From assembly GCA_963815195.1 (NCBI GenBank), contig CAWFGE010000013.1, positions 1,088,001-1,152,000 of the forward strand: DNA of 64,000 nucleotides, given 5' to 3'. Position numbers and translations under genes: made by a program. Under the pieces are notes generated by a model. That model was not told the origin of the DNA. It ran no database searches and was given only the letters and a program-made list of their open reading frames with translations. Position 1 is the first letter of the stretch, and every line of letters starts with the position of its first letter. Shown here one piece after another: positions 4,020 through 21,050 of this stretch. This DNA comes from an uncultured Planctomycetaceae bacterium (GTDB lineage Bacteria; Planctomycetota; Planctomycetia; Planctomycetales; Planctomycetaceae).

Positions 4020-4222
4020 TTGAAACGGCGGAACGCCGGGATTCCCGATTCTCCAATTCCCCCAGGTTATTTCGGCTACCAAAATCGTCTTGTTGACTTG
4101 GGCGGAATTGTTATCTTCCGCACACTGTCCGTAGCGGCGGCTTCCAGCCGCCGAGATCGATCGACGGCGGCAAAATGCCGCTGCACCGTTTGGCCGCGGC
4201 TTCGCCGCATGAGGAACTCCGC

Positions 4223-5534: not shown

Positions 5535-5548
5535 CTCCGCATCCAGCG
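5535..5548 (+). repeat. Left att core CTCCGCATCCAGCG
   Basis: Identical to 20878-20891; lies at the transition from host genes to element genes. Confidence 0.85.
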
Positions 5549-5779: not shown

Positions 5780-6091
5780 ATGACAGGAATTTCCGATGAG
5801 CAACTCGCCGAAGCACTGGACCTGCGGGCCGACCGTTCGGTCAAGATGCGGTTGTGGCAGTATTTCACCATCCTTTTTTCAATCGTCGCCGGGGCTATAA
5901 CCCTGGGGATTCTCTACGGCACAATGTGCGCCGCGCAGAACGAACAAGCCGCCGCGATGAAGAACATGCAGGAGAAATTCGAGCGGACCCTGGAAAAGCT
6001 CGATGACCTCGATAAGCGGGTGTTGGCCGTGGAAATCCAGATGAAACTTCGGGTTGCGATCCGAACCTACGGATCTCCCGTTTCCGAATGA
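5780..6091 (+). CDS. Small single-TM, coiled-coil protein
   Basis: Hydrophobic FTILFSIVAGAITLGILYG followed by a heptad-like tail; purine-rich RBS. Confidence 0.7.
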   Translation: MTGISDEQLAEALDLRADRSVKMRLWQYFTILFSIVAGAITLGILYGTMCAAQNEQAAAMKNMQEKFERTLEKLDDLDKRVLAVEIQMKLRVAIRTYGSPVSE

Positions 6092-6210: not shown

Positions 6211-9200
6211 TCAACGGAAGCCCCGGCGGTTCAATTCCTGTTCGAGCGAATCGGCGAATTGCCGGGCCATTTCAGGCGTCGGCGGAAATGCGGAATTCAT
6301 GTGCACGTTGATCGGTGCCTTGCCGTGCCCCGCGTCGGCGCGCCCGCTCAAGCCGGGATCGTACAGCACGCCGGAGAGCGAATTGACTCCGAGCACCGGC
6401 GGGGCCACTGGCGTCAAAAGCTGCCGAAGCTGCGCGACCATTTGCCCGATCTGGTTTTCGATTCCGATTCTCCGCCGGGCGGTATCGACGACGCTCAAGT
6501 CTTGTTGCAAGAGCGCGATATTGCTGCGAATCGTGCCGATGAGTCCTTCCTTGCTGGCGAGAAAACTTGTGATCCGAGACCACGCTTGCCCGGCTTGCTG
6601 CGGGCTGATATTGGACGCCGCCTGGGCGACTCGCTGGCCCACTTTCTGCATGTTGGTCCCGAAGTTCGTCATGTTTTGCTTCAGGCCCTGGAAGCCTTGG
6701 CCAATCGCCGGAATTAGGCCATTCAGCCGAGCGAACTTCTGCCACGCGGTTTCGACCTGTTGCGAGAATTGCGACATCCGGAACGCCGCCAGTTTGTCTT
6801 GAACTGCCTTTTGGATGTCGAGTCCCGCCCCCTTGAAATCGCCTTTCAAGAGTGCTTCGCGTTGCTCCTGCTTTTTCTTTTCGGCCGCGGCTGCTACGGC
6901 TTCATTCGTCGCCTGAGTCAAAGCCTGCATCTCGTTGGAAAACTGCCCGATGGAGAGCGAACCATTTTTTAATTGTTCATGCAGTGCCAACGCTTGCCCG
7001 GAAAAGCCATTGAGCGATTCCTTGCTGAGCTTTCCGGCTTCATCAAGATCGAAAATCTTCTGTGCGAAATCGTGGAGAACCGGCTGACCCTGTTCAATGG
7101 ATTGTTTGAGGGTGTCGGCATCGTTGACCATCTTCGCCAGCGATTGGGCGAGCGCATCGAGTGCCTGAGAGTTCCCTTGGTTCTGACCGAAGATGTTCGC
7201 TGCGCCTGAAGCCATTCCCGGAGTGACGCCCTTTTGCAAGCCGAGCATTTGTTGCACCTGCACTGGAGTGATTCCCTCCATTCCAAAGATGCTCCTGAAG
7301 TTTGACGAACCCGGCGTTTGCCGATTCATCGCGGAAAGTTGCGCATCCCGCATGGCCTGTTGAATGCCGGCTTGATTCGCTCGCTGTGCTTCCGTGGGAG
7401 AAGGATTCGCGAATCTTGGATTTGCTCCAGGCGCTTGCCGGCCCGCCTGGTTGGGCGCGGCGTTGCCAATTGGACCCCTTGTGATCGGTATTGTTTCATC
7501 CACAATTGATGCCGCGTTAGTCGTTGCTTTCGCAGGCGTCCCTGCTCCGCGGCCCAACATGAATTGGCGAAAAGAAAAAGGCGACCCTTCGCCGAATCGG
7601 AAACCTCTGGAGATGCCAGAACCAGTGGTTTCGCCTTTCAGTTTCCAACCGGCAAGCAAACCGGAACCCGTCTTGCCGCTTTCCGTTGCTGTTGCTGTTG
7701 CTGTTGCTGCCGATTTGCCTCCACCCAATCCAAGCAATCCGAGCGGTCCAGATAACCCTTTCATAGCCGAACCTGCGCCGCCAATTGATTTCCCCATGTC
7801 CCCAAAAATGGCGTTGAGAGCCGTTGCACTTTCCTTCAATTGGCCAGCAAACAACTCAACGAGAGGTTTTGCGACTTCCAGCAATAGCCTAATTTCAACG
7901 GATAGATTTGCAATGCTCACTTTCAACAGATCCGAAATCAGCGGAGCCAATTCCTTTACCGCCGGCCCCAGTTCGTCGCGGATTAAGACGGCGAGTTCAA
8001 CGAGCGTCGGCCTGATTTGCTGCCAGGCATCGAGTACCGCAGCCGCAATTTGTTCCCATGCGGATTTTGCGGACTGAAACAGATCGCCGAAAATATCGCT
8101 GTTGGCTTCGATCCACGCTTTCACCTGATCGAAATGGGCGATGAGTAATCCGACGGCGACGATCACCGCGCCGATTCCTGTGGAAATCATGGCGGCACGA
8201 AGGCTTCCGAATGCAATCGGTAGAGTGCTTCCAATGGCTGTGGCGAGACGAATCACGACATCGATCAAACCGAAAAACCCGAATACTTTGAGAGTCACAA
8301 GGGCATTCAAGATTTGCGGATGCTGTGCGACGAAATTCATTGCCTGCCCTAAAAATCTTGCGAAACCACCGGCGAGTCTCAACAGAGTCGGAACGACTTC
8401 ACTGGCCGCAATTGCCAATCGACCGAACACGTCGATTGCCCCGCTGACGGCAGACTCAAGGCCCCCAATAAACACGTCTGGGGTGATGCCCGAGAATGAC
8501 CGCGAAAGCCGCATGACTAACGCCCCGATCTGGTTTGCGATGCGATCGACGGCGACTTGAAACCGCGGGCCGCTCATCGCATCCACGACACCAGAAAACG
8601 CCTCCGTGATGCGGTGGAAAGCCGGCAACATGACCTTTCCCGCAGCCTGGGTCAAAGCGTCTTTGATGTTGCTCAACAGACCCGTGAACTTGTGGGACAG
8701 CTTTTCCATCTGGCCGCCGAAACGGTCGGTCAATCCTTCAAGAATGGCCGGAACCGCTATGCTCGCGGAGATTGCCCCATTTTCCGCTTGTTTCATGGCC
8801 GTCGGGATGTCGGTGCCGATTTTCTTCGCCAAGATTTCCCAGGCCGGGATCCCCGCTTCGGCAAGCTGGTTCATTTCCTGGGCGCTGACTTTTCCCTTCG
8901 CTTTGATCTGCCCGAGGGCCAACGTGATGCGGTCCAGTAGTTCCGGCGAGCCACCCAGACCGGCGGCGGCGTCCCCGACTGCGGTCAACATCGGAAGGAT
9001 TTGTTCCGCGGCGAAGCCGAACGCCAAAAGCTTTTGAGCCGATTTAACAAGCCCCGGCATTTCAAACGGAGTCTTGATGGCGAATGCCTTCAATTCTTCC
9101 ATGAATTTTTTGGCTTTTTCGGCGCTGCCGAGCATCGTCGAAAATGCGACTTCGGCATTCTCTGACATCGCGTCGAAGCTAATCCCGATCTTGGCGACCG

Positions 9201-9393
9201 AGCCGGCGATACCGAGCGCCACCCCGCCGACGACGGTCGTAATCCGCGTGGCTGCCCGGTCGATGGCTTTCGCGGCATCCGCCCATTTTTTCGCCAAGTC
9301 TTGCGTGGCGATGGCGGCTTTTTGCATGTTGCGGGCGAAGCCGCTCATATCGGTTTGCACGATGCCGCGAAGCATGTGGAGAACTGTCGTCAT
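6211..9393 (-). CDS. Phage tail tape measure protein (1060 aa)
   Basis: N-terminal tape-measure domain (AFSTMLGSAEKAK..FAIKTPFE..LGQIKAKGKVSAQEMNQLAEAGIP), Ala/Gly-rich helical body, hydrophobic mid segment. Confidence 0.92.
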   Translation of the reverse strand: MTTVLHMLRGIVQTDMSGFARNMQKAAIATQDLAKKWADAAKAIDRAATRITTVVGGVALGIAGSVAKIGISFDAMSENAEVAFSTMLGSAEKAKKFMEELKAFAIKTPFEMPGLVKSAQKLLAFGFAAEQILPMLTAVGDAAAGLGGSPELLDRITLALGQIKAKGKVSAQEMNQLAEAGIPAWEILAKKIGTDIPTAMKQAENGAISASIAVPAILEGLTDRFGGQMEKLSHKFTGLLSNIKDALTQAAGKVMLPAFHRITEAFSGVVDAMSGPRFQVAVDRIANQIGALVMRLSRSFSGITPDVFIGGLESAVSGAIDVFGRLAIAASEVVPTLLRLAGGFARFLGQAMNFVAQHPQILNALVTLKVFGFFGLIDVVIRLATAIGSTLPIAFGSLRAAMISTGIGAVIVAVGLLIAHFDQVKAWIEANSDIFGDLFQSAKSAWEQIAAAVLDAWQQIRPTLVELAVLIRDELGPAVKELAPLISDLLKVSIANLSVEIRLLLEVAKPLVELFAGQLKESATALNAIFGDMGKSIGGAGSAMKGLSGPLGLLGLGGGKSAATATATATESGKTGSGLLAGWKLKGETTGSGISRGFRFGEGSPFSFRQFMLGRGAGTPAKATTNAASIVDETIPITRGPIGNAAPNQAGRQAPGANPRFANPSPTEAQRANQAGIQQAMRDAQLSAMNRQTPGSSNFRSIFGMEGITPVQVQQMLGLQKGVTPGMASGAANIFGQNQGNSQALDALAQSLAKMVNDADTLKQSIEQGQPVLHDFAQKIFDLDEAGKLSKESLNGFSGQALALHEQLKNGSLSIGQFSNEMQALTQATNEAVAAAAEKKKQEQREALLKGDFKGAGLDIQKAVQDKLAAFRMSQFSQQVETAWQKFARLNGLIPAIGQGFQGLKQNMTNFGTNMQKVGQRVAQAASNISPQQAGQAWSRITSFLASKEGLIGTIRSNIALLQQDLSVVDTARRRIGIENQIGQMVAQLRQLLTPVAPPVLGVNSLSGVLYDPGLSGRADAGHGKAPINVHMNSAFPPTPEMARQFADSLEQELNRRGFR

Positions 9394-9405
9394 AGCAAAA
9401 CTCCG

Positions 9406-9762
9406 TCAGTTGGTTTGGGCAGCGGCGGCGAGGGACTCTTGTCGCGTGGGCAACTCAGTAAGCAAGAAAGCGGCGTTAGACGCCCCGGGCAGCGTGCCGA
9501 TGCGATGCCATGCCTGGGGCAATCCTGTGACCCATATCAAAACATCAGGCAGAGTCACAACGCCTCCGCCGATGCCGCTTCTCCACAACTCGCATCGGGC
9601 GAACGTCTCATCGATGGTGCCACCATGCAGCAAGCGCTGAGCGGCGAACAAAGCGGCGAGCGGATTGCTGTCGGTGTTTTCGAGGACGATATTGATGAAG
9701 CCGGCAAGAAAACTCTCGCCGATTTCTTCGGGGGGGATCCGGACCTTGGAGTCGGTGGGCAT
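9406..9762 (-). CDS. Hypothetical protein directly upstream of TMP (candidate tail assembly chaperone)
   Basis: 118 aa, 12-bp gap to TMP, same strand; function inferred from position only. Confidence 0.55.
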   Translation of the reverse strand: MPTDSKVRIPPEEIGESFLAGFINIVLENTDSNPLAALFAAQRLLHGGTIDETFARCELWRSGIGGGVVTLPDVLIWVTGLPQAWHRIGTLPGASNAAFLLTELPTRQESLAAAAQTN

Positions 9763-10057: not shown

Positions 10058-10774
10058 ATGGATCACGCCACAACGCCAGCCGAATTGATTGCCAGAGCCG
10101 CACAGGACGCAGAGAAACAGGCTGAGCAGCAAGAAATCGAGGCTGCTAAACAATCGCGACGGGAACGGTTTCGTTCAGCGTGGGATGACGTGAGATATTT
10201 CACACAGGACATGGCCGGACATATCTCGCGAGAGCAATTTTATGAGGCCTGGGGGGATCGGATCATCTCGTTGGGGTCGGTACTGAAGGAACTCGGTTGG
10301 GACCGGCACTTGGATTCGATAGGCGATGGCTCCGATTCGCTCAAATATGCCATAGAGATTTTTCGGTCTGCTATCCGAGGCGACGAAGCGAACGTTGCCA
10401 AGCTGATCTTGGATGCTGCTGAAGTGGAAGGGTTTTGTGGTGCAGTCAATGAAGCCCTTCGCACCTCGATCATGCAACGGGTGTGGGAAGCCCAATGGCC
10501 CGCACAAATCAGGGAAGTGCACACCGAATCGGTCTTTGACTGGCCGGAAGCAGTGGCAACCGAAAACAAGAAAAAGCAAACGGTTGTTGAGCGAATGGCG
10601 GCGATTTACAAAAACGATAGGCGTTGTGTGGATTGGACCGCCGAGGAATGGGCGAAACTCCTCAATTGCTCTGTATCAGCGATCAAGAAGCCCGGGAATT
10701 ATGTGTGGAAAGCGATAAAAAAAGATCGTCAGGCCCGAATGGATGCTTTGAAAAAAGGCGGTTACTTAGGGTGA
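10058..10774 (+). CDS. Hypothetical protein with C-terminal HTH
   Basis: WTAEEWAKLLNCSVSAIKK HTH-like motif; AGGAG RBS. Confidence 0.75.
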   Translation: MDHATTPAELIARAAQDAEKQAEQQEIEAAKQSRRERFRSAWDDVRYFTQDMAGHISREQFYEAWGDRIISLGSVLKELGWDRHLDSIGDGSDSLKYAIEIFRSAIRGDEANVAKLILDAAEVEGFCGAVNEALRTSIMQRVWEAQWPAQIREVHTESVFDWPEAVATENKKKQTVVERMAAIYKNDRRCVDWTAEEWAKLLNCSVSAIKKPGNYVWKAIKKDRQARMDALKKGGYLG

Positions 10775-10812
10775 CCGAGTAACCAAGAAAAAAATCTGAG
10801 AAATCAACCGAG

Positions 10813-10843
10813 GCGGTTTCCCTAGTGGGAAACCGCTTTTTTT
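10813..10843 (+). terminator. Intrinsic terminator
   Basis: GCGGTTTCCC-TAGT-GGGAAACCGC followed by T7. Confidence 0.8.
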
Positions 10844-10920: not shown

Positions 10921-11115
10921 ATGCCGAAAAAAACGGAACCGGCGGATTGCGCTACTGTGTGGTTTGCGATCCTGGAGCGAGCAAAAAATCTAAGGGATTT
11001 CGAGCGGGCCGCCGAAGCCCAGCGAGAACTGCGTCGTCTTGGAGTACATGTGACTTTTGATCCTGAGGGGGAAAAGCATGCCAAGCGACGTAAGCCCGGC
11101 TCTCCCGGTCTCTGA
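10921..11115 (+). CDS. Small hypothetical protein
   Basis: GGAG RBS; MPKKTEPADCATVWFAILERA...; overlaps the alpA start. Confidence 0.65.
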   Translation: MPKKTEPADCATVWFAILERAKNLRDFERAAEAQRELRRLGVHVTFDPEGEKHAKRRKPGSPGL

Positions 11116-11338
11116 TCGGCTGCTGGTCGATTCGCACGGCGTCGCCGATCTGCTCTCGATTTCGGAACGACATGTCCGGCAACGGGATGCGGCCGGCAAT
11201 CTCCCCAAGCCCGTGCGGTTGGGGGGATCGGTCCGCTGGAGTGTCCCCGAACTTCGGGCATGGGTGGCTGCCGGCTGCCCGAATCGCGAGACATGGGACG
11301 TCATTCGGAGCGAAGAATTCCCCCGCAAACCGCGGTGA
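11078..11338 (+). CDS. alpA: AlpA-family regulator / excisionase-like HTH
   Basis: VADLLSISERHV..AGNLPKPVRLGGSVRWSVPELRAW. Confidence 0.88.
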   Translation: MPSDVSPALPVSDRLLVDSHGVADLLSISERHVRQRDAAGNLPKPVRLGGSVRWSVPELRAWVAAGCPNRETWDVIRSEEFPRKPR

Positions 11339-11441: not shown

Positions 11442-12362
11442 ATGATACTATCGCACCGGCCCCAAAAGGGCAATCTGAGCGGACGTGATGCGCGCCGGGA
11501 AAAACTGCGACAGAAGGAACTGGATTTTCCGACGAAGCGCGGCGAACGCTTAAAACTCCTGCGCCAGTGCCGTGTGGGAGACGCCTTAGAAAAACTACTC
11601 CTGCGAACCCTCGATGACCGGATCGGGGACGGGAAAACGTGGCGAATGGGCATCGCCGAACTTGCGGGGGAAATGGAGGTATCGCCGGCAACCGTCTATC
11701 GAAAGCTGGCGTCTCTCGAAGCGAAGGAACTCTTGGTTGCTGAAGAGCGGGCGTCGGGGCTATATGAGTTCCAAGTCATTTTTTCAAATCTGCCCGAACT
11801 CATCCCGCCCCAGGGCCAACAGCAGCAAGCCGGCCGTCGGCGACGCGAAAAACCTTCTCACTGTGCAAAGGAAGTTTCGCAGAGTGAGAAAGATCTTTCT
11901 CACTGTGCGAAACGCACTACTTATAAGCGCCCCGATAGCGCCCAGAGCGCCCACCCCCCAAGCCCCCCAGAGGGGGGATCGGTTGCCGAGCCGCCGCCCC
12001 CAGGCGGGGAAGCGGTTGGCGAGCCGCCGCGCCGCACCTTCCGGGCCGAAGAGTTTCCGATACCTGTCGGACTCGACACGCCAGCGTTCCGCGACGCCTG
12101 GCGGGAGTGGTGCGAGTTTCGCCGCCACACGAAACGCAAGCCCATCAGCGAAGCGGCTGCCGGAAAGCAGATGGCCGGGCTCGACCGGGCTGGTTCCGCC
12201 GCGGCCGTCGAAGCCATCGAAGAAGCCATCGCGAACGACTGGCAAGGTTTGTTCCCCGACACGAAAAAAGGAAATTCCGATGATCGCATCGAACGAAAAG
12301 CCCGGCGTGCCGAGAGTGAATGGGAAGCCGCCTTCCAGGAAACCGCTAAAAGCGATCGGTGA
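11442..12362 (+). CDS. Phage-type replication initiator (N-terminal wHTH, Pro-rich linker, C-terminal replisome-organizer-like domain)
   Basis: IAELAGEMEVSPATVYRKLASLE HTH; AWREWCEFRR..KP..IEEAIANDWQGLF; internal iterons. Confidence 0.78.
   Translation: MILSHRPQKGNLSGRDARREKLRQKELDFPTKRGERLKLLRQCRVGDALEKLLLRTLDDRIGDGKTWRMGIAELAGEMEVSPATVYRKLASLEAKELLVAEERASGLYEFQVIFSNLPELIPPQGQQQQAGRRRREKPSHCAKEVSQSEKDLSHCAKRTTYKRPDSAQSAHPPSPPEGGSVAEPPPPGGEAVGEPPRRTFRAEEFPIPVGLDTPAFRDAWREWCEFRRHTKRKPISEAAAGKQMAGLDRAGSAAAVEAIEEAIANDWQGLFPDTKKGNSDDRIERKARRAESEWEAAFQETAKSDR
11854..11912. repeat. Three iteron-like repeats, CTTTCTCACTSTGCGAAA consensus (direct-inverted-direct); putative ori
   Basis: 11854-11869, 11875-11892 (inverted) and 11895-11912, about 21-bp spacing, inside rep. 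Confidence 0.65.
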
Positions 12363-12915
12363 AGCCTTGAGGCCGCTTCAGGAATTGTGCCGCGATCCCA
12401 AATCGGCATCGGCCCTGCGGAGCTTTGCCGAGTTGCTGGTTGACCTTCCGCCGGTGGACATCGAGACGGCAGTGAAACGCTATCTCCGCGAAGCTGACGA
12501 ACTGTGGTTTCCCTCTCCGGGGAAGCTGCGCAAACTCGCGATGGAAGCCGCGGAAGGCGAACTCCCCGAATGGCAGCACGCCTGGCATCGGGTCATGGAC
12601 GCCTGCCGAATGTGGGACCAACACGATGCAAAAAAGGCGATCACCGCCCGCCAGCATATCGGCGAAACCCTGTATGAATTTGTGCGAATGCTTGGGGGAT
12701 TCGTCGCTCTGACCTCAGTAGATTCCGATACGCTTTCGGTTTTGCAGTCGAATTTCCGGAACGCATTCACGGCCGAACGAAAGCGGGCGGATCGCAATCG
12801 AGCGCTCCCGGATTCATTGCGGCCCGTCCCAGCGAAACTGCATGGACTCGGAAACCGGAATGACTCCGCCAAACTTATTTCCGCGCCCCAGCCAATCGGC
12901 GAAGTTCTGGAATGA
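12280..12915 (+). CDS. Helicase loader/inhibitor-like protein (SPP1 G39P-like)
   Basis: LVDLPPVDIETAVKRY..WFPSPGKLR..AWHRV pattern; overlaps the 3' end of rep. Confidence 0.6.
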   Translation: MIASNEKPGVPRVNGKPPSRKPLKAIGEALRPLQELCRDPKSASALRSFAELLVDLPPVDIETAVKRYLREADELWFPSPGKLRKLAMEAAEGELPEWQHAWHRVMDACRMWDQHDAKKAITARQHIGETLYEFVRMLGGFVALTSVDSDTLSVLQSNFRNAFTAERKRADRNRALPDSLRPVPAKLHGLGNRNDSAKLISAPQPIGEVLE

Positions 12916-14471: not shown

Positions 14472-14867
14472 ATGACCGAAAATGGCAACGAAAAACGCGG
14501 GAATCAAGAATCCCAGGATGAGCAAATGCTCTTGGCGCTCGCCAGCGGTGCGAGCGTCAAACAGGCCGCGGACGCGTGCAATCTATCCGAGCGGACCATT
14601 CGCCGGCGGCTGGATGATGCGAGCTTCGTTGCCCGGCTGCGGGCGATGCGGTCCGATGTGCTTGACGGCGTTTTGGGCCGGCTGACGTTCGCGGCGGCTT
14701 CGGCGGTCGAGGTGCTCAAAACGTTGATGGCGGATGCCGAGAGCGAAACGGTGAAATTGGGAGCGGCCCGGGCCGTCCTTGAGCATGCTGGCAAACTTCG
14801 GGCGGACATCGAATTTGAGAGCCGGCTCGCCGAATTGGAGCGCCGGCTTTCCGGGCCAGAGCGTTAA
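14472..14867 (+). CDS. HTH protein, terminase-small-subunit-like
   Basis: LALASGASVKQAADACNLSERTIRRRL HTH plus helical oligomerisation-type region (AVEVLKTLM..VKLGAARAVL). Confidence 0.68.
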   Translation: MTENGNEKRGNQESQDEQMLLALASGASVKQAADACNLSERTIRRRLDDASFVARLRAMRSDVLDGVLGRLTFAAASAVEVLKTLMADAESETVKLGAARAVLEHAGKLRADIEFESRLAELERRLSGPER

Positions 14868-14871
14868 CAAT

Positions 14872-14897
14872 AAAAAACCGCCGGCGGCAACCGGCGG
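14872..14897 (-). terminator. Intrinsic terminator (minus strand)
   Basis: A6-CCGCCGG-N6-CCGGCGG between convergent genes. Confidence 0.55.
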
Positions 14898-15113
14898 CTC
14901 GGAAAGGTTGGGAGAATGGATAACACGAATCATCAGGCCGGGCAAGCCGATGGCGAAAATCAATCGCCGTGCTTCCGAGGGAATTCCCAGGCTGACGATC
15001 GGCTACCCAGACGACTCGGAGGCCGTCTTTCCGTCTGCGTCGATTCTGGGGCATCCTGGGGCGTCTCAGGGCCAATGGCGATTTTCGCCGTTTATTCGCC
15101 GATTTTCGGCGGT

Positions 15114-15395
15114 TCATTCCTTCGGCTTGGCTTCCTTCGACTTCGGCTTCCGGCGAGGCTCGCGGACATCAGCGGGGAGCTTCGGGATTTTCGCCTTGGT
15201 CAATCGCATGCCGAAGAACTGGCACAGATTGTTGATCGTATCCATTGCCATCGAATCCCTGTCACCGGAATACCATCGCTGCAGGGATGGTCGCGAGATT
15301 CCCGCTTTCTCGGCAATTCGCAGGATCGACCAGCCTTTGGCGACGGCTTCGGTCATCGCATCATAAAGCTGTTCGGAAACGGTCTTTTCGGTCAT
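15114..15395 (-). CDS. XRE-family HTH repressor
   Basis: SILRIAEKAGISRPSLQRWYSG..MDTINNLCQFFG; AGGAG RBS. Confidence 0.85.
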   Translation of the reverse strand: MTEKTVSEQLYDAMTEAVAKGWSILRIAEKAGISRPSLQRWYSGDRDSMAMDTINNLCQFFGMRLTKAKIPKLPADVREPRRKPKSKEAKPKE

Positions 15396-15991: not shown

Positions 15992-16989
15992 ATGCAACCC
16001 GAAGAATGGACCGTCAGACGGCTTTTTGAGGAACACTATTGCCCGCGCCGCAAGAGCGCAACACAAAGGACTCGGCAAAAAATGGGGCACGAGCTTAACC
16101 GGTGGGAGCGATTCATCGGCGCGGACATGCTGGCCACCGAGGTTATGCGCGAGACCTTCGACCGCTTTCGCGAACTGGCGGCCGTCGATGGCCTCTCCCC
16201 CAACACCATCGAAACGACGATTGGCAGCATTTTGACGATACTGCGGTTTGCCGAGCTTTACGATCTCATCGACCGCGCACTGCGCAAAGGCGAACCGCTC
16301 CGCCGGACTCGGAAACGAAAGTATGTGCCATCGATAACCGACGTTGACCATCTTTATCGGCGGGCCAACCAAGCGAAATGGCCGCTGCCGAGTCCATCCG
16401 CTTTCTGGCGGGCGTGGCTGGTTTGCAGCTATTTCACAGGCCTACGGCTGAACGACATGATTGGTTTGCTGTGGAGCAGTTTTCGGGATGATTCGCTCAT
16501 CATCGAAGCCGAAAAAACCGGGAAAATGCATATCTTTCCCGTTTCGCCGATCTTGGAATCGCACCTCGAACCGCTGCGGGTTTTTGGTTCAGACCGGGTT
16601 TTCCCCATCCCCAGGAATTCCGGGAAGTACGTCCGCCGGGAGCTTGAGCGTTTATCCGATGGATTGCCCACCAAGATTGGCCCGCAGGCCCTTCGGCGGC
16701 TGGCGGGAACGCAGTGGCAAAGAGCCCGCTGGGCGCGGGCCAGTTGCTTTTGGGCCATACGCTGGGCGTGTCTGATTTTTATATCGCTCCCGAACTCTTA
16801 AACGACGCAATCGAGAATCTCGAAATCCCGTCCGCTTTCACAGAGCCGAAAAACCAAGCCGGAGATCCGCTTACCGAAGTTGAGCAGCGATTTTCCGGGC
16901 TGGAGGAGGGACATCAGCGGCTCGCCCTCGAAATGATTGAAGAGTTTGCCCAGCGCATCGGCAACGGGAAAGGGGGCGATTCATGCTGA
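15992..16989 (+). pseudogene. Tyrosine recombinase 1, frameshifted near 16727 (possibly a sequencing error)
   Basis: FTGLR, EKTGK and QALRR in ORF 15992-16801; LLGH..SDFY continues in ORF 16714-16989. Confidence 0.75.
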
Positions 16990-17873
16990 CCGTCAGAGAG
17001 ATCTTCACCGACCATTTTTGCCCGTCTCGCGACATCGCGGAATCGACACGCGACAAAATGGGCTACCAGATCCGGCGATTCGAAAAGCACATTGGCCCGA
17101 TGCCGGCGGTTGAGATTGGGGCCGAGACCTTCCATCAGTTCCGGCAAGTTTGCATGTTTCTGGGGCTATCGAAAGTCACCATCGAAATGACGATTGATAG
17201 CGTGCTGAACGTGCTTCGGTGTGCGGAATCGCAGGGCATTGTCCCCAAAGCCCCGGAGAAAGGCGAACCCCTCGACCGGATCGAAAAGCAGGACGGTGAA
17301 TTCAATGCCGAACTCGAAAACTTCCGGGCGCGCGAGGATTTGCCCATCACCGTGCAGGACTTGGAGCGGATTCTCGGGGCGGCTCGCACAATGCCCGAGG
17401 CCCTGGACGGCATCCCCGGCGGCTTGTGGTGGCCTGCGCTGGTGCTTTGCATTCTTGACACCGGGCGGAATGGAATCGACCTCTTGGAATTGCCGGTCGA
17501 GGCTTACGACCGGGATTCGGGAGCGCTCCGCATCGGCCGCAAGAAATTCAGACTGCACGCCCACACCGCGAACGCCCTCGATGCCGTCCGGACCTACGAC
17601 CGGGAACGGCTGTTTCCCTGGCCGAAGGACGGGCGCGAGCGGCCCTATTGCATGTTCTATCACGATTATCAGGATCTCTTGCACCGGGCCGGCCTGCCCC
17701 CGATGCAGAAGCGGCCATTGGCGAGGCTGCGAAAACTCGGCGAACGCTATCCGCAAATCCTGGACGCCATCGACTCGCACCGGCCCTTCCAGCCGATCCA
17801 AGGAAAGCCGGACCGCGGCCGGAAGCGAAAGCCGAAGCGCCGAAAGCCGCGCGCCGCCACGGCGTTTATGTGA
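16983..17873 (+). CDS. Tyrosine recombinase-like protein 2, catalytic motifs degenerate
   Basis: N-terminus paralogous to recombinase 1; WWPALVLCILDTG; no HxxR, LGH or Tyr box recognised. Confidence 0.7.
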   Translation: MLTVREIFTDHFCPSRDIAESTRDKMGYQIRRFEKHIGPMPAVEIGAETFHQFRQVCMFLGLSKVTIEMTIDSVLNVLRCAESQGIVPKAPEKGEPLDRIEKQDGEFNAELENFRAREDLPITVQDLERILGAARTMPEALDGIPGGLWWPALVLCILDTGRNGIDLLELPVEAYDRDSGALRIGRKKFRLHAHTANALDAVRTYDRERLFPWPKDGRERPYCMFYHDYQDLLHRAGLPPMQKRPLARLRKLGERYPQILDAIDSHRPFQPIQGKPDRGRKRKPKRRKPRAATAFM

Positions 17874-18784
17874 TCGGCGACGATTCGCCCAACACCTTGC
17901 GGAACTACTTCACTTCGACTTATCGGCCGCTAAAGCTGATTGGCTGCTCGCACCGGACCGTTAATTCCTATATCACGGTCATCAATGGCTTTTCGACGTT
18001 CCTGGCGTGCGAAGCGAACCTGCATCACCTGACGGATGATTTCTTAGGCCGCTATTCAGCGTGGATGTCTGAAAAGGAGTATGAGCCGACCACGATCAAC
18101 GGCCATCTGCGGCATCTTCTTGCCCTGTGGCGGCACGCGTGGAAGAAACGCCGCGTGGAGGAGCGCCCCCGCGATGTCGATTTCCTGCCGACCTACAAGC
18201 GCAATCCCACTGCCTGGACGGTCGAGGAAATGGGCCGAATCCTCACATCGGCTCGCCAAGCGGAAGGCGACTTCAAAGGCATACCGGCAAACCTGTTTTG
18301 GCCGGCTCTCATTTTGACGATGTATGACACCGGCCTGCGATTGGGGGCGATGATGCAACTCAAAGCCACAGATCTGAACCTGGAAACCGGCATTCTGATT
18401 GCCCGGGCCGAGACGCAAAAGCAGAAGGCCGATCAGGTGTTTCGGCTTCGGCGGCAAACCGTGGAATCGCTTGAGGCCATCGACCCGCCGGCCCGGGAAT
18501 TCCTCTTCGGCTATCCAGAATATGAAACCAACAAGCGGAGGATTTACCGGACGCTCAATGAGATTCTGGAGCGGGCCGGATTGCCCGCAACCGACCGCGA
18601 CAAGTTCCACAAGATTCGGCGAACCAGCGCGACCCTTTTGGCCGATGCGATGGGCGAGGAAGCGGCGAAAGAACACTTAGGGCATAGCAGCATCAACATC
18701 ACGCGAGGGTATTTGGATCTCACGAAGATTCGCCCCCGCGTGAACTCGGCCGAGGCGATCCCCAACCCGGAGAACCGACCATGA
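17870..18784 (+). CDS. Tyrosine recombinase 3 (intact)
   Basis: YDTGLR, TQKQK, FHKIRR, LGHSS, TRGY; GTGA overlap with the upstream stop. Confidence 0.88.
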   Translation: MIGDDSPNTLRNYFTSTYRPLKLIGCSHRTVNSYITVINGFSTFLACEANLHHLTDDFLGRYSAWMSEKEYEPTTINGHLRHLLALWRHAWKKRRVEERPRDVDFLPTYKRNPTAWTVEEMGRILTSARQAEGDFKGIPANLFWPALILTMYDTGLRLGAMMQLKATDLNLETGILIARAETQKQKADQVFRLRRQTVESLEAIDPPAREFLFGYPEYETNKRRIYRTLNEILERAGLPATDRDKFHKIRRTSATLLADAMGEEAAKEHLGHSSINITRGYLDLTKIRPRVNSAEAIPNPENRP

Positions 18785-19313: not shown

Positions 19314-20957
19314 ATGGCAAGCGTATTCAAACGCAAATACAAGGATTCCCGCACCGGGAAGATGAAAACCACATCCAGATGGCAGGTGGCGTTCAAGGAC
19401 CACAACCGAATCCGCCGGACGTTGCCCGGATTCACCGATAAAACGCTGACCAAGGATCTCGGCCGGAAGCTGGAGCGGCTGGCGGAACGCCGCCGGCTGA
19501 ACCGCGATCCTGATGAAGAACTGGCGGCATGGTTGGAAACGTCCGATGCGAAACTCAAGGCGAAACTCGCGGAATGGGGGATGCTCGATTCCCGATCCGT
19601 GGCCGGGGCAAAGCCTCTCGCGGAACACATCGGCGACTACCGGAAGCATCTGGAAGCGAAGAATAACACCCCCGACCACATCAACCCGACGATCAGCCGG
19701 ATTGAAGCGATTGCCAACGGTTGTGGGTTCCTGTTCATTTCCGACGTTTCCGGCTCCCATGTGGCCGCGTGGTTGAAGGATCAACGGGAAGCCGATGCCT
19801 TCGGCATCTCGACCAGCAACGCCTATCTGACCGCCCTGAAGGGCTTCTGTAATTGGCTGGTGAAGGATCGGCGGGCGAATGAAAACCCCGTCTCGTATCT
19901 GGCCCGGTTGAATGCTGAGACTGACATCCGACGGCAACGGCGTTCGCTCTCGCAAGAAGACTTCGGGCTGCTGATCGAAGCGACCCGCACCGGGGCGGAA
20001 GTCTGCGGGCTCACCAGCCGGGAACGGCAGATGCTCTACCATGTGGCCGCTTACACCGGCCTCCGGGCTTCGGAATTGGCGAGCCTGACGGAACGGTCGT
20101 TTGACCTGGAAGCCGAGCATCCCACGGTCACCGTGGCGGCCGGCTATTCCAAGCACCGGCGGAAAGACACGTTGCCCCTCAATGCGGATTTGGTGGTTTC
20201 GCTGTGGGAGTGGTTCGCCGAGCGGCGGCAAGAAGTGGCCGAAGTTTCCGACATCATCCCCATCGGCAAGCCTTCAGCGGACAAGTTGTGGCCCGGAAAG
20301 TGGGCGAAGAACCGGCATGCGGCCGAGATGCTACGGCACGATCTCAAAGCAGCCCGCACCGCATGGATCGAAGCCAAGGGTATTACCGAAGAGGAACGCC
20401 GGCTGCGGGAGGAATCCGACCGGCTGAAATACCTCGACTTTGATGAACGGCAGTTTGACTTCCACGCGCTCCGCGGGCAATTCGTCACCGAGTTGGGCAG
20501 GGCCGGCGTCAATCTGCAAGACGCCCAAAAGCTGGCCCGGCATTCCGACCCGCGGCTGACCGCGAACCATTACACGCACCTATCGGTTTCCGACCTGTCG
20601 CGTTCTGTGTGCAAACTGCCCGCACTGCCGAAGCCGAAGGAAGCCGCCCAAGCGACCGGGACCGACGGCAAGCCGGCGACCGCTCCGGAAAACTGCAGCG
20701 CCTATGCGCGCCGCCCTGGTGCCGAACAATGCCGCCCTGTGCCGGAATCTGGCAATTCTGGCAATTTGGAGGATTCCGCCCCGGAAAAGCAAAAACCCCC
20801 GAAACCCTCTAAAACAGGGGCTTCGGTGGAATACCCGAGGGGGGACTCGAACCCACACGAGGTTTACCCTCACTGGTCTCCGCATCCAGCGCGGATATCG
20901 GACTCTTCCGGCGAATGGGGGGGGACGCGGATGATTTGTTCGTGTGATGATCAATGA
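19314..20957 (+). CDS. int: Main tyrosine integrase; ORF reads through the right att site
   Basis: N-terminal arm-binding-like domain; YTGLRASEL, SKHRR, FHALR, LARHSD, NHY; AGGAG RBS; last 21 codons lie outside the element. Confidence 0.93.
   Translation: MASVFKRKYKDSRTGKMKTTSRWQVAFKDHNRIRRTLPGFTDKTLTKDLGRKLERLAERRRLNRDPDEELAAWLETSDAKLKAKLAEWGMLDSRSVAGAKPLAEHIGDYRKHLEAKNNTPDHINPTISRIEAIANGCGFLFISDVSGSHVAAWLKDQREADAFGISTSNAYLTALKGFCNWLVKDRRANENPVSYLARLNAETDIRRQRRSLSQEDFGLLIEATRTGAEVCGLTSRERQMLYHVAAYTGLRASELASLTERSFDLEAEHPTVTVAAGYSKHRRKDTLPLNADLVVSLWEWFAERRQEVAEVSDIIPIGKPSADKLWPGKWAKNRHAAEMLRHDLKAARTAWIEAKGITEEERRLREESDRLKYLDFDERQFDFHALRGQFVTELGRAGVNLQDAQKLARHSDPRLTANHYTHLSVSDLSRSVCKLPALPKPKEAAQATGTDGKPATAPENCSAYARRPGAEQCRPVPESGNSGNLEDSAPEKQKPPKPSKTGASVEYPRGDSNPHEVYPHWSPHPARISDSSGEWGGTRMICSCDDQ
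20832..20876 (-). tRNA. 3' half of a tRNA-Leu gene (attP-borne fragment, not a full tRNA)
   Basis: Reverse complement reads CCAG-T-GAGG GTAAA CCTC (long variable arm)-GT-GTGGG TTCGAGT CCCCC-CTCGGGT-A (discriminator A); no D-arm or 5' acceptor strand upstream. Confidence 0.8.
20878..20891 (+). repeat. Right att core CTCCGCATCCAGCG
   Basis: Identical to 5535-5548; abuts the tRNA fragment. Confidence 0.85.
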
Positions 20958-21049
20958 TGGGATTTACCTCCCCACGGGAAGGTGAAAGAGCGCGGACAAG
21001 GTAATTCTTTATCACCGTCGTCGTCGCCCCCTGATTATCCGGAGGAACC
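20901..21049. repeat. ~150-bp MITE-like dispersed repeat, copy 1
   Basis: Similar to 24132-24288; imperfect terminal inverted repeats and a central hairpin. Confidence 0.7.
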
Positions 21050-21050
21050 A

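What the first reader, a model, noticed from the sequence alone, without database searches (positions are those of the whole stretch)
6211..9762. Stand-alone tape-measure module (118-aa ORF plus full-length TMP) on the strand opposite the other element operons: tail hijacking or tail sabotage?
Seen: an intact 1060-aa TMP preceded 12 bp upstream by a 118-aa ORF. The pair is divergent from the replication operon and has no other tail genes around it. Established: tail assembly chaperones sit directly upstream of TMP; TMP sets tail length (about 0.15 nm per residue, so about 160 nm here) and assists DNA ejection; Vibrio PLE satellites have been reported to supply their own TMP to helper tails. 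Inference: the element may substitute its TMP into helper tails, or use it as a dominant-negative anti-phage decoy.
Basis: partly seen in the sequence, partly recalled or inferred. Interest (0 to 1): 0.8.

Follow-up and report, generated by a model that had tools for sequence, protein, structure and literature searches.

The report
Satellite-like island carrying tail-length gene
A small mobile DNA element in a soil bacterium carries a virus tail-length gene but no other recognisable virus-particle genes, so it most likely borrows a passing virus's particles and inserts its own tail ruler, a strategy only recently described in other bacteria.

Summary
Observation confirmed: an intact 1060-aa tape measure protein (TMP) lies 12 bp behind a 118-aa ORF, divergent from a replication operon. 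Both sit in a 15.36-kb integrative element (14-bp direct repeats, empty site in a congener). It encodes integrase, AlpA-like, Rep, loader and a weak TerS-like gene, with no head or other tail gene recognised.

The TMP keeps both ends of a siphophage TMP lineage whose full tail operons occur in the host's family. The 118-aa ORF is a real small helical protein, but nothing supports it as a chaperone.

Class survey: of 43 TMP_3 loci in 401 genomes, 20 lack tail-tube and connector genes, 19 lie in full tail operons, 4 are undetermined. Island pairs show dN/dS 0.11-0.39.

Best reading (0.6): a PICI-like satellite supplying its own TMP to helper tails, as shown for PLE. Rivals: relic or cargo (0.22), decoy (0.12). 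Against: sister islands lack TMP, no helper found in this genome, TMP residues 541-700 look non-coding, and the mechanism rests on analogy. The scan noted this theme before on other DNA, planctomycetes included.

The parts
5535..5548 (.). left attachment repeat (14-bp direct repeat)
   Evidence: only two copies in the window, at 5535 and 20878; flanks join across 85 bp in congener G001
5780..6091 (+). 103-aa ORF with a hydrophobic stretch and a helical tail, convergent on the TMP; function not assigned
   Evidence: positive coding score; no family over cut-off
6211..9393 (-). full-length tape measure protein, 1060 aa; lineage-type ends, hydrophobic segments near 361 and 398, unmatched low-complexity middle (541-700)
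9406..9762 (-). 118-aa all-helical protein of a three-member family; not shown to be a chaperone
   Evidence: homologues P0122, P0123; AlphaFold2 pLDDT 65; no chaperone match
10058..10774 (+). 238-aa ORF, possible regulator (inference), followed by an intrinsic-terminator-like hairpin at 10810-10839
11078..11338 (+). AlpA/excisionase-like protein
   Evidence: phrog_66 E 1e-6; Phage_AlpA E 0.005, below cut-off
11442..12362 (+). O-like replication initiator with internal repeats and a 20-bp hairpin (11855-11913), probable origin
   Evidence: phrog_678 E 2e-19
12280..12915 (+). Rep-coupled protein, loader-like by position (inference)
   Evidence: phrog_9804 E 9e-12, unknown function; relatives next to Rep in two sister islands
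14472..14867 (+). HTH protein, weak terminase-small-subunit match, followed by a hairpin at 14875-14900
   Evidence: phrog_2538 E 3e-5
15114..15395 (-). Cro/C1-type HTH repressor candidate
   Evidence: HTH_26 over cut-off
15992..18784 (+). extra tyrosine-recombinase-like genes; the two apparent frame breaks are probably assembly errors
   Evidence: PHROG integrase hits; one-base differences in run X1 give 332 aa and 600 aa
18781..19032 (+). small HNH endonuclease
   Evidence: phrog_2118 E 7e-23
19314..20957 (+). tyrosine integrase, about 85% identical to a sister integrase at this genome's tRNA-Leu(CAA)
20832..20876 (-). 3' half of a tRNA-Leu(CAA) carried by the element; the present site is a secondary one
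   Evidence: comparison with the C12 tRNA-Leu(CAA); no tRNA gene in the window
20878..20891 (.). right attachment repeat

Best explanation
The TMP is cargo of a 15.4-kb PICI-like phage satellite with no recognisable capsid gene. Shown: att-bounded insertion, integrase, AlpA-like, Rep and loader-position genes, a weak TerS-like gene, and an intact TMP of a siphophage lineage found in the host's family. Inferred: when a phage of that lineage infects or is induced, the element excises, replicates and steers helper packaging with its TerS-like protein. Its TMP is then built into tails made from helper tube, connector, Dit and hub proteins, probably with the helper's chaperones. The conserved ends would keep it compatible, and tails would be about 12-22 nm shorter than those of the three lineage phages seen (1060 vs 1141-1204 aa, at 0.15 nm per residue). 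The gain would be preferential tails for satellite heads, control of DNA ejection, or escape from TMP-targeting defences. The 118-aa protein is a probably co-transcribed accessory whose role (selectivity factor or Rta-like inhibitor) is unsupported.
For: Element boundaries and empty site. PICI-type core without recognisable head genes. TMP ends match phage TMPs in complete operons L169, L163 and L250/G237. That lineage's Dit-like gene is found in 3 of 401 class genomes, all in the host's family. Gene order is not a prophage's: the TMP is inverted, upstream of the early operon and far from TerS. 20 of 43 over-cut-off TMP_3 loci lack tube and connector genes, in 14 genomes; 15 of the 20 TMPs are unbroken ORFs of 583 aa or more. 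dN/dS is 0.11 for the G008/G088 island pair and 0.23-0.39 among G389 copies. Precedent: PLE TMP is incorporated into virions and needed for transduction; EPIP tails differ in length from the helper's.
Against: No experiment, and no dN/dS for this gene itself (no close DNA relative). The element has no recognisable chaperone or baseplate gene, unlike PLE. No helper found in this 94.6%-complete assembly: no tail tube, portal or second full TMP. Sister islands sharing the integrase or Rep carry no TMP. TMP residues 541-700 match no lineage member and score as non-coding. Island TMPs are polyphyletic: 11 changes, at least 7 forced, 64 of 500 shuffles as low, which also fits repeated decay. 5 of 20 island TMPs are broken or truncated. 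The TerS call is weak (E 3e-5). Six of the 20 island loci come from one genome (G389).
Confidence: 0.6

Rival explanations
1. Non-functional cargo or prophage relic: the element picked up or kept a TMP gene by chance and has not yet lost it.
For: Sister islands lack TMP. A true TMP relic lies in this genome near C13:761.5 kb. L042 looks like a decayed copy of the same phage lineage (Dit-like gene plus a 581-aa TMP). The adaptor-to-tube block is only 2.1-2.8 kb and contiguous in 8 operons, so one deletion can remove it. Polyphyly. Non-coding-like middle of the TMP. The element sits at a secondary site.
Against: A 3.2-kb ORF is intact with both functional ends kept while every other structural gene is absent. 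The gene order is not prophage-like. Island pairs that share the same layout show dN/dS 0.11-0.39. 15 of 20 island TMPs are unbroken.
Confidence: 0.22
2. Tail sabotage: the TMP acts as a dominant-negative decoy, titrating helper chaperones or baseplates or making dead tails, possibly with the 118-aa protein as an Rta/Tai-like inhibitor, protecting the host population.
For: No own chaperone, so it would compete for the helper's (inference). Only 26-56% identity by region to lineage phage TMPs, with an unmatched middle. Separate divergent unit. Small tail-targeting inhibitors exist on satellites (Rta, 80 aa).
Against: The tail inhibitor whose size I read (Rta) is a small protein, not a full TMP. 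The element has replication and packaging-type genes and would need tails itself. TMP expression is described as intrinsically toxic and can trigger Avs18. No PADLOC match for the 118-aa family.
Confidence: 0.12
3. The TMP serves mainly as an ejection (pilot) protein or superinfection-exclusion escape factor for the element's DNA, with tail length incidental.
For: Two hydrophobic segments at similar positions in lineage TMPs. TMP roles in genome injection are known (reference title seen; otherwise recalled).
Against: It still needs incorporation into the tail, so it is a sub-case of the best explanation; no direct evidence.
Confidence: 0.06

Closest known systems
PLE satellites of Vibrio cholerae (PLE1/4/11; PMC12987554, passages and section 8 read)
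   Same: Integrated satellite that encodes its own TMP without tube genes; a small unknown-family protein (Rta) is nearby in concept.
   Different: PLE also encodes TAC and BhuB and parasitises a lytic contractile-tailed phage. Here no TAC or hub gene was recognised, the TMP comes from a siphophage-type lineage and the backbone is PICI-like. I did not test for PLE gene homologues.
EPIPs of Mycolicibacterium aichiense (PMC12822802, abstract and main text read; references and supplement not seen)
   Same: About 11-kb satellite with TerS and TMP and no tail tube; no chaperone listed among core genes.
   Different: EPIPs have a serine integrase, head-tail adaptor, stopper and a major capsid gene, and induce their helper. 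None of these genes was recognised here.
PICI as modelled in SatelliteFinder (PMC10085698, passages read)
   Same: Integrase, AlpA-like regulator, replication module, TerS-like gene; 15 kb against a 9.5-kb median.
   Different: No capsid-morphogenesis gene recognised. It carries a tail gene, and tail components are 'forbidden' in that PICI model, so such elements may be rejected.
cf-PICIs with putative tmp (figure legend of Extended Data Fig. 10, PMC12987554)
   Same: Satellite with a tmp gene; 10 of the 19 other island loci seen here carry capsid plus TMP.
   Different: The window's element has no capsid, portal or TerL recognised.

Membership tests
Tape measure protein | TMP domain, long mostly helical ORF, lineage-type termini | tested here: met
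   PF20155 and TIGR02675 over cut-off; ends match TMPs of complete operons
Tail assembly chaperone (118-aa ORF) | sequence or profile similarity to TAC or TAC2 families | tested here: not met
   no Pfam, PHROG or NCBIfam hit for 3 of 3 family members; negative scores against class TAC HMMs; hhalign probability at most 0.5% against the lineage's positional TAC and TAC2
Tail assembly chaperone (118-aa ORF) | TAC fold (HK97 2OB9 or PLE 5IR0 type) | tested here: inconclusive
   pLDDT-65 all-helical model; best VIA Z 5.5, rmsd 3.1, 51 residues, to an unrelated chain; residues beyond 69 barely tested
Tail assembly chaperone (118-aa ORF) | directly upstream of TMP on the same strand | tested here: met
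   12-bp gap; but in the TMP's phage lineage that slot holds a Dit-like gene
Tail assembly chaperone (118-aa ORF) | binds TMP | not tested
PICI | integrase and att sites | tested here: met
PICI | AlpA/Stl-type regulator and replication module | tested here: met
   phrog_66, HTH_26, phrog_678; Rep is O-like rather than a primase
PICI | small terminase | tested here: inconclusive
   phrog_2538 E 3e-5 only; no NCBIfam hit
PICI | no tail genes (forbidden component of the SatelliteFinder model) | tested here: not met
   TMP present; model rule read
PICI | helper-induced excision, replication and packaging | not testable with these tools
   needs induction experiments
PLE | tmp together with tac and bhuB | tested here: not met
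   no chaperone or hub gene recognised among the element's ORFs
PLE | satellite TMP incorporated into chimeric tails | not testable with these tools
   needs virion proteomics or EM
EPIP | serine integrase, adaptor, stopper, major capsid protein | tested here: not met
   tyrosine integrase; no capsid, adaptor or head-closure hit in the element
cf-PICI | own capsid, portal and terminase | tested here: not met

The most novel reading that the evidence does not exclude
Planctomycetes harbour a large, so far undescribed set of satellites that repeatedly captured TMPs from their helpers (at least seven forced changes of island versus operon state on the tree), making up close to half of the TMP_3 loci in the class. 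This element is the minimal capsid-less, chaperone-less form, in which a new-family 118-aa helical protein selects the satellite TMP over the helper's or blocks the helper's TMP. That would supply the selectivity step that is unexplained for PLE.
Probability: 0.2. Interest if true: 0.8.

Novelty: new variant of a known kind. Interest (0 to 1): 0.5.

Why it matters
Satellite-encoded TMPs were first shown in Vibrio PLE, where how the satellite TMP is selected remains unknown. A capsid-less element with only a TMP and one unknown small protein is a minimal system for that question. It comes with a named candidate helper lineage (prophage in genome G237) and a measurable prediction: tails 12-22 nm shorter. 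The class survey suggests tail manipulation by satellites is common in this group. My searches listed no paper describing such satellites there, and the PICI model of SatelliteFinder forbids tail genes. If the gene is a relic, the value falls to an annotation caveat: a lone TMP does not mark a prophage.

Tried and rejected
118-aa ORF as chaperone: the word-index search found only itself. The full HMMER search found 2 homologues of unknown context. It was not found in 400 other phylum genomes, in the GTDB scan or convincingly in 3902 ORFs of fetched loci (best E 0.014). Atlas gave no usable hit for two members. Fold searches gave nothing at E<=0.001 and list no chaperone (best Z 5.5); this does not exclude the fold. 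A short motif resemblance to the 113-133-aa gene between tube and chaperone in the lineage phages was rejected (hhalign 0.2-1.1%).

Complex prediction of the 118-aa protein with the TMP was not available.

Compensating frameshifts in the TMP middle: no homologue matches another frame and no frame scores clearly as coding; not supported.

Context of the nearest TMPs P0003, P0004, P0005, P0015, P0019, P0022, P0035, P0046 could not be seen: scans found no close locus. The 80 viral loci hold no member with the lineage C-terminus.

Reads: no RNA holder listed. Three DNA runs were laid as contigs and show no joint at the att repeats; this is not evidence of absence.

Operon dN/dS controls were saturated (0.39, 0.47, one undefined) and give no clean baseline. 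Promoter scan was at chance level (4 found, 4.3 expected). A RIT-type trio for the extra recombinases (recalled idea) was dropped, since run X1 suggests two genes.
Full report
OBSERVATION. The TMP at 6211-9393(-) is an unbroken 1060-codon ORF. It matches TMP_3, TIGR02675 and PHROG TMP families. The 118-aa ORF ends 12 bp upstream, and 295 bp separate it from the first plus-strand gene. Contigs of run X1 are identical over 8798-9562; X1 may be the source sample. No call names the host; I infer a planctomycete from recalled gene-content hallmarks.

THE ELEMENT. A 14-bp direct repeat at 5535 and 20878 bounds 15.36 kb. In congener G001 the two flanks are 85 bp apart, and none of 3 congeners has a TMP match. 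The element carries the 3' half of tRNA-Leu(CAA) beside its integrase, whose 85%-identical sister sits at the real tRNA, so this is a secondary-site insertion. Content: AlpA-like, O-like Rep with internal repeats, a Rep-coupled protein, a weak TerS-like HTH (E 3e-5), a Cro/C1 HTH, extra recombinases, HNH and the integrase. No capsid, portal, TerL, connector, tube, tip or lysis gene was recognised. Two apparent frame breaks in the extra recombinases differ by one base in X1, which gives 332- and 600-aa ORFs, so they are weak evidence of decay.

ORIGIN OF THE TMP. The nearest proteins (P0003 sister in the tree, 97/92) have unseen context. Three relatives with context (L169, L163 and L250 in genome G237) lie in complete siphophage-type operons; tube, chaperone, Dit and hub labels there rest partly on position. 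G005 has the same operon to a contig end. The window TMP shares their N-terminus, the 271-400 segment and the C-terminus (26-56% by region; L163 mainly the middle segment). Residues 401-540 match weakly, and 541-700 match nothing and score as non-coding. The lineage's Dit-like gene was found in 3 of 401 class genomes, all in the host's family, so a candidate helper lineage exists. This genome itself shows no tube, portal or second whole TMP, only a lone TerL/TerS pair, protease-capsid pieces and a TMP fragment.

THE 118-AA PROTEIN. It is a real gene with two homologues among 1.84 billion representatives. The model is all-helical at pLDDT 65. It matches no chaperone by family scan, local HMM or profile comparison, and fold searches are inconclusive. 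Position alone does not make it a chaperone, since the lineage phages put a Dit-like gene there.

IS THE PATTERN GENERAL? PF20155 scored over cut-off at 43 places in 36 of 401 class genomes. I fetched all 43 neighbourhoods (up to 20 kb) and called genes with my own script. All called ORFs were scanned with HMMs built from these loci, and a chosen part went to PHROGs (107 and 112 proteins; the second set included other loci). Result: 19 full tail operons, 20 without tube, terminator or neck genes (14 genomes, window included; 6 loci from G389), and 4 undetermined at contig ends. Of the 19 other tail-less loci, 10 carry a capsid gene, 4 a chaperone, and 14 an integrase or fragment within the fetched stretch (two transposases in that cluster were not counted). 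15 of 20 TMPs are unbroken; L020, L056, L058, L064 and L042 are broken or truncated. The ratio is biased: G237 and G005 operons were missed by PF20155, so operons are undercounted. Island TMPs are polyphyletic (11 changes, at least 7 forced; shuffles as low in 64 of 500; 57 rows, none left out). Island pairs give dN/dS 0.11 (G008/G088, one of which has a stop) and 0.23-0.39 (G389 copies). One similar island appeared in a Chloroflexia-labelled genome (L167). Against necessity: sister islands with the same integrase or Rep lack a TMP.

MECHANISM. Best (0.6): satellite TMP substitution. Boundaries, gene content and TMP lineage are shown; induction, packaging and incorporation are inferred from PLE, where the satellite TMP is in virions and its deletion cuts transduction by 96-99.9%, and from EPIP tail lengths. 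Relic or cargo (0.22) is supported by real relics, polyphyly and the odd TMP middle. It is opposed by the intact 3.2-kb ORF, the non-prophage gene order and dN/dS in sister cases. Decoy (0.12) has no positive evidence.

COMPARISON AND NOVELTY. It works like PLE/EPIP on a PICI-like backbone but fails a membership feature of each (see table). Papers seen: PMC12987554 passages and section 8; PMC12822802 abstract and main text, not references or supplement; PMC10085698, PMC13581612 and PMC11364771 passages; others as search listings only. Unseen supplements, such as the element list behind PLE Extended Data Fig. 10, might include planctomycete cases. Earlier scan notes report the same theme in other genomes; I did not check their loci, and none matched this sequence or place. 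Verdict: new variant of a known kind, interest 0.5.

Noticed in passing
window 15992-18784: Extra tyrosine-recombinase-like genes inside the element besides the main integrase. Run X1 suggests a 332-aa gene and a 600-aa double-domain gene; role unexplained.
   Followed up: partly
window 5535-5548 and 20832-20891: A tRNA-Leu(CAA)-type element at a non-tRNA secondary site; both ends now share the same 14-bp core, so it could still excise.
   Followed up: partly
L150:9170-10004 (G000 C13, next to tRNA-Gln): Relic of another island: an integrase N-terminal fragment plus a TMP N-terminal fragment of a different TMP type.
   Followed up: partly
L151:5163-13077 (G000 C8): Island with Rep-coupled genes and a protease-capsid gene in pieces, no tail genes recognised.
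   Followed up: partly
L153:9870-11754 (G000 C12): Lone TerL plus TerS-like pair without portal or capsid nearby.
   Followed up: no
L054, L055, L056, L064 (G389): A chaperone-plus-TMP cassette in several copies in one genome (L064 has TMP fragments only), TMP 977-1012 aa when whole, dN/dS 0.23-0.39.
   Followed up: partly
L036:5620-13498 (G071): Element with TerL, capsid, TMP, portal and head-morphogenesis genes in an unusual order and no tail tube recognised, flanked by two integrases.
   Followed up: partly
L250/L251 (G237), L169, L163: A siphophage-type lineage with a Dit-like gene upstream of the TMP and a large hub gene after it; L169 lies in a MAG labelled Gammaproteobacteria, possibly misbinned.
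   Followed up: partly
L167:5465-19184: Chloroflexia-labelled island: integrase, excisionase, 132-aa gene, 613-aa TMP, primase, protease; no tail tube recognised.
   Followed up: partly
G000 C5, C8, C12: Three large tRNA arrays (9, about 12 and about 21 genes) in this genome.
   Followed up: no
window 4128-4190 and 20900-21050: Dispersed intergenic repeats with many copies across the genome.
   Followed up: no
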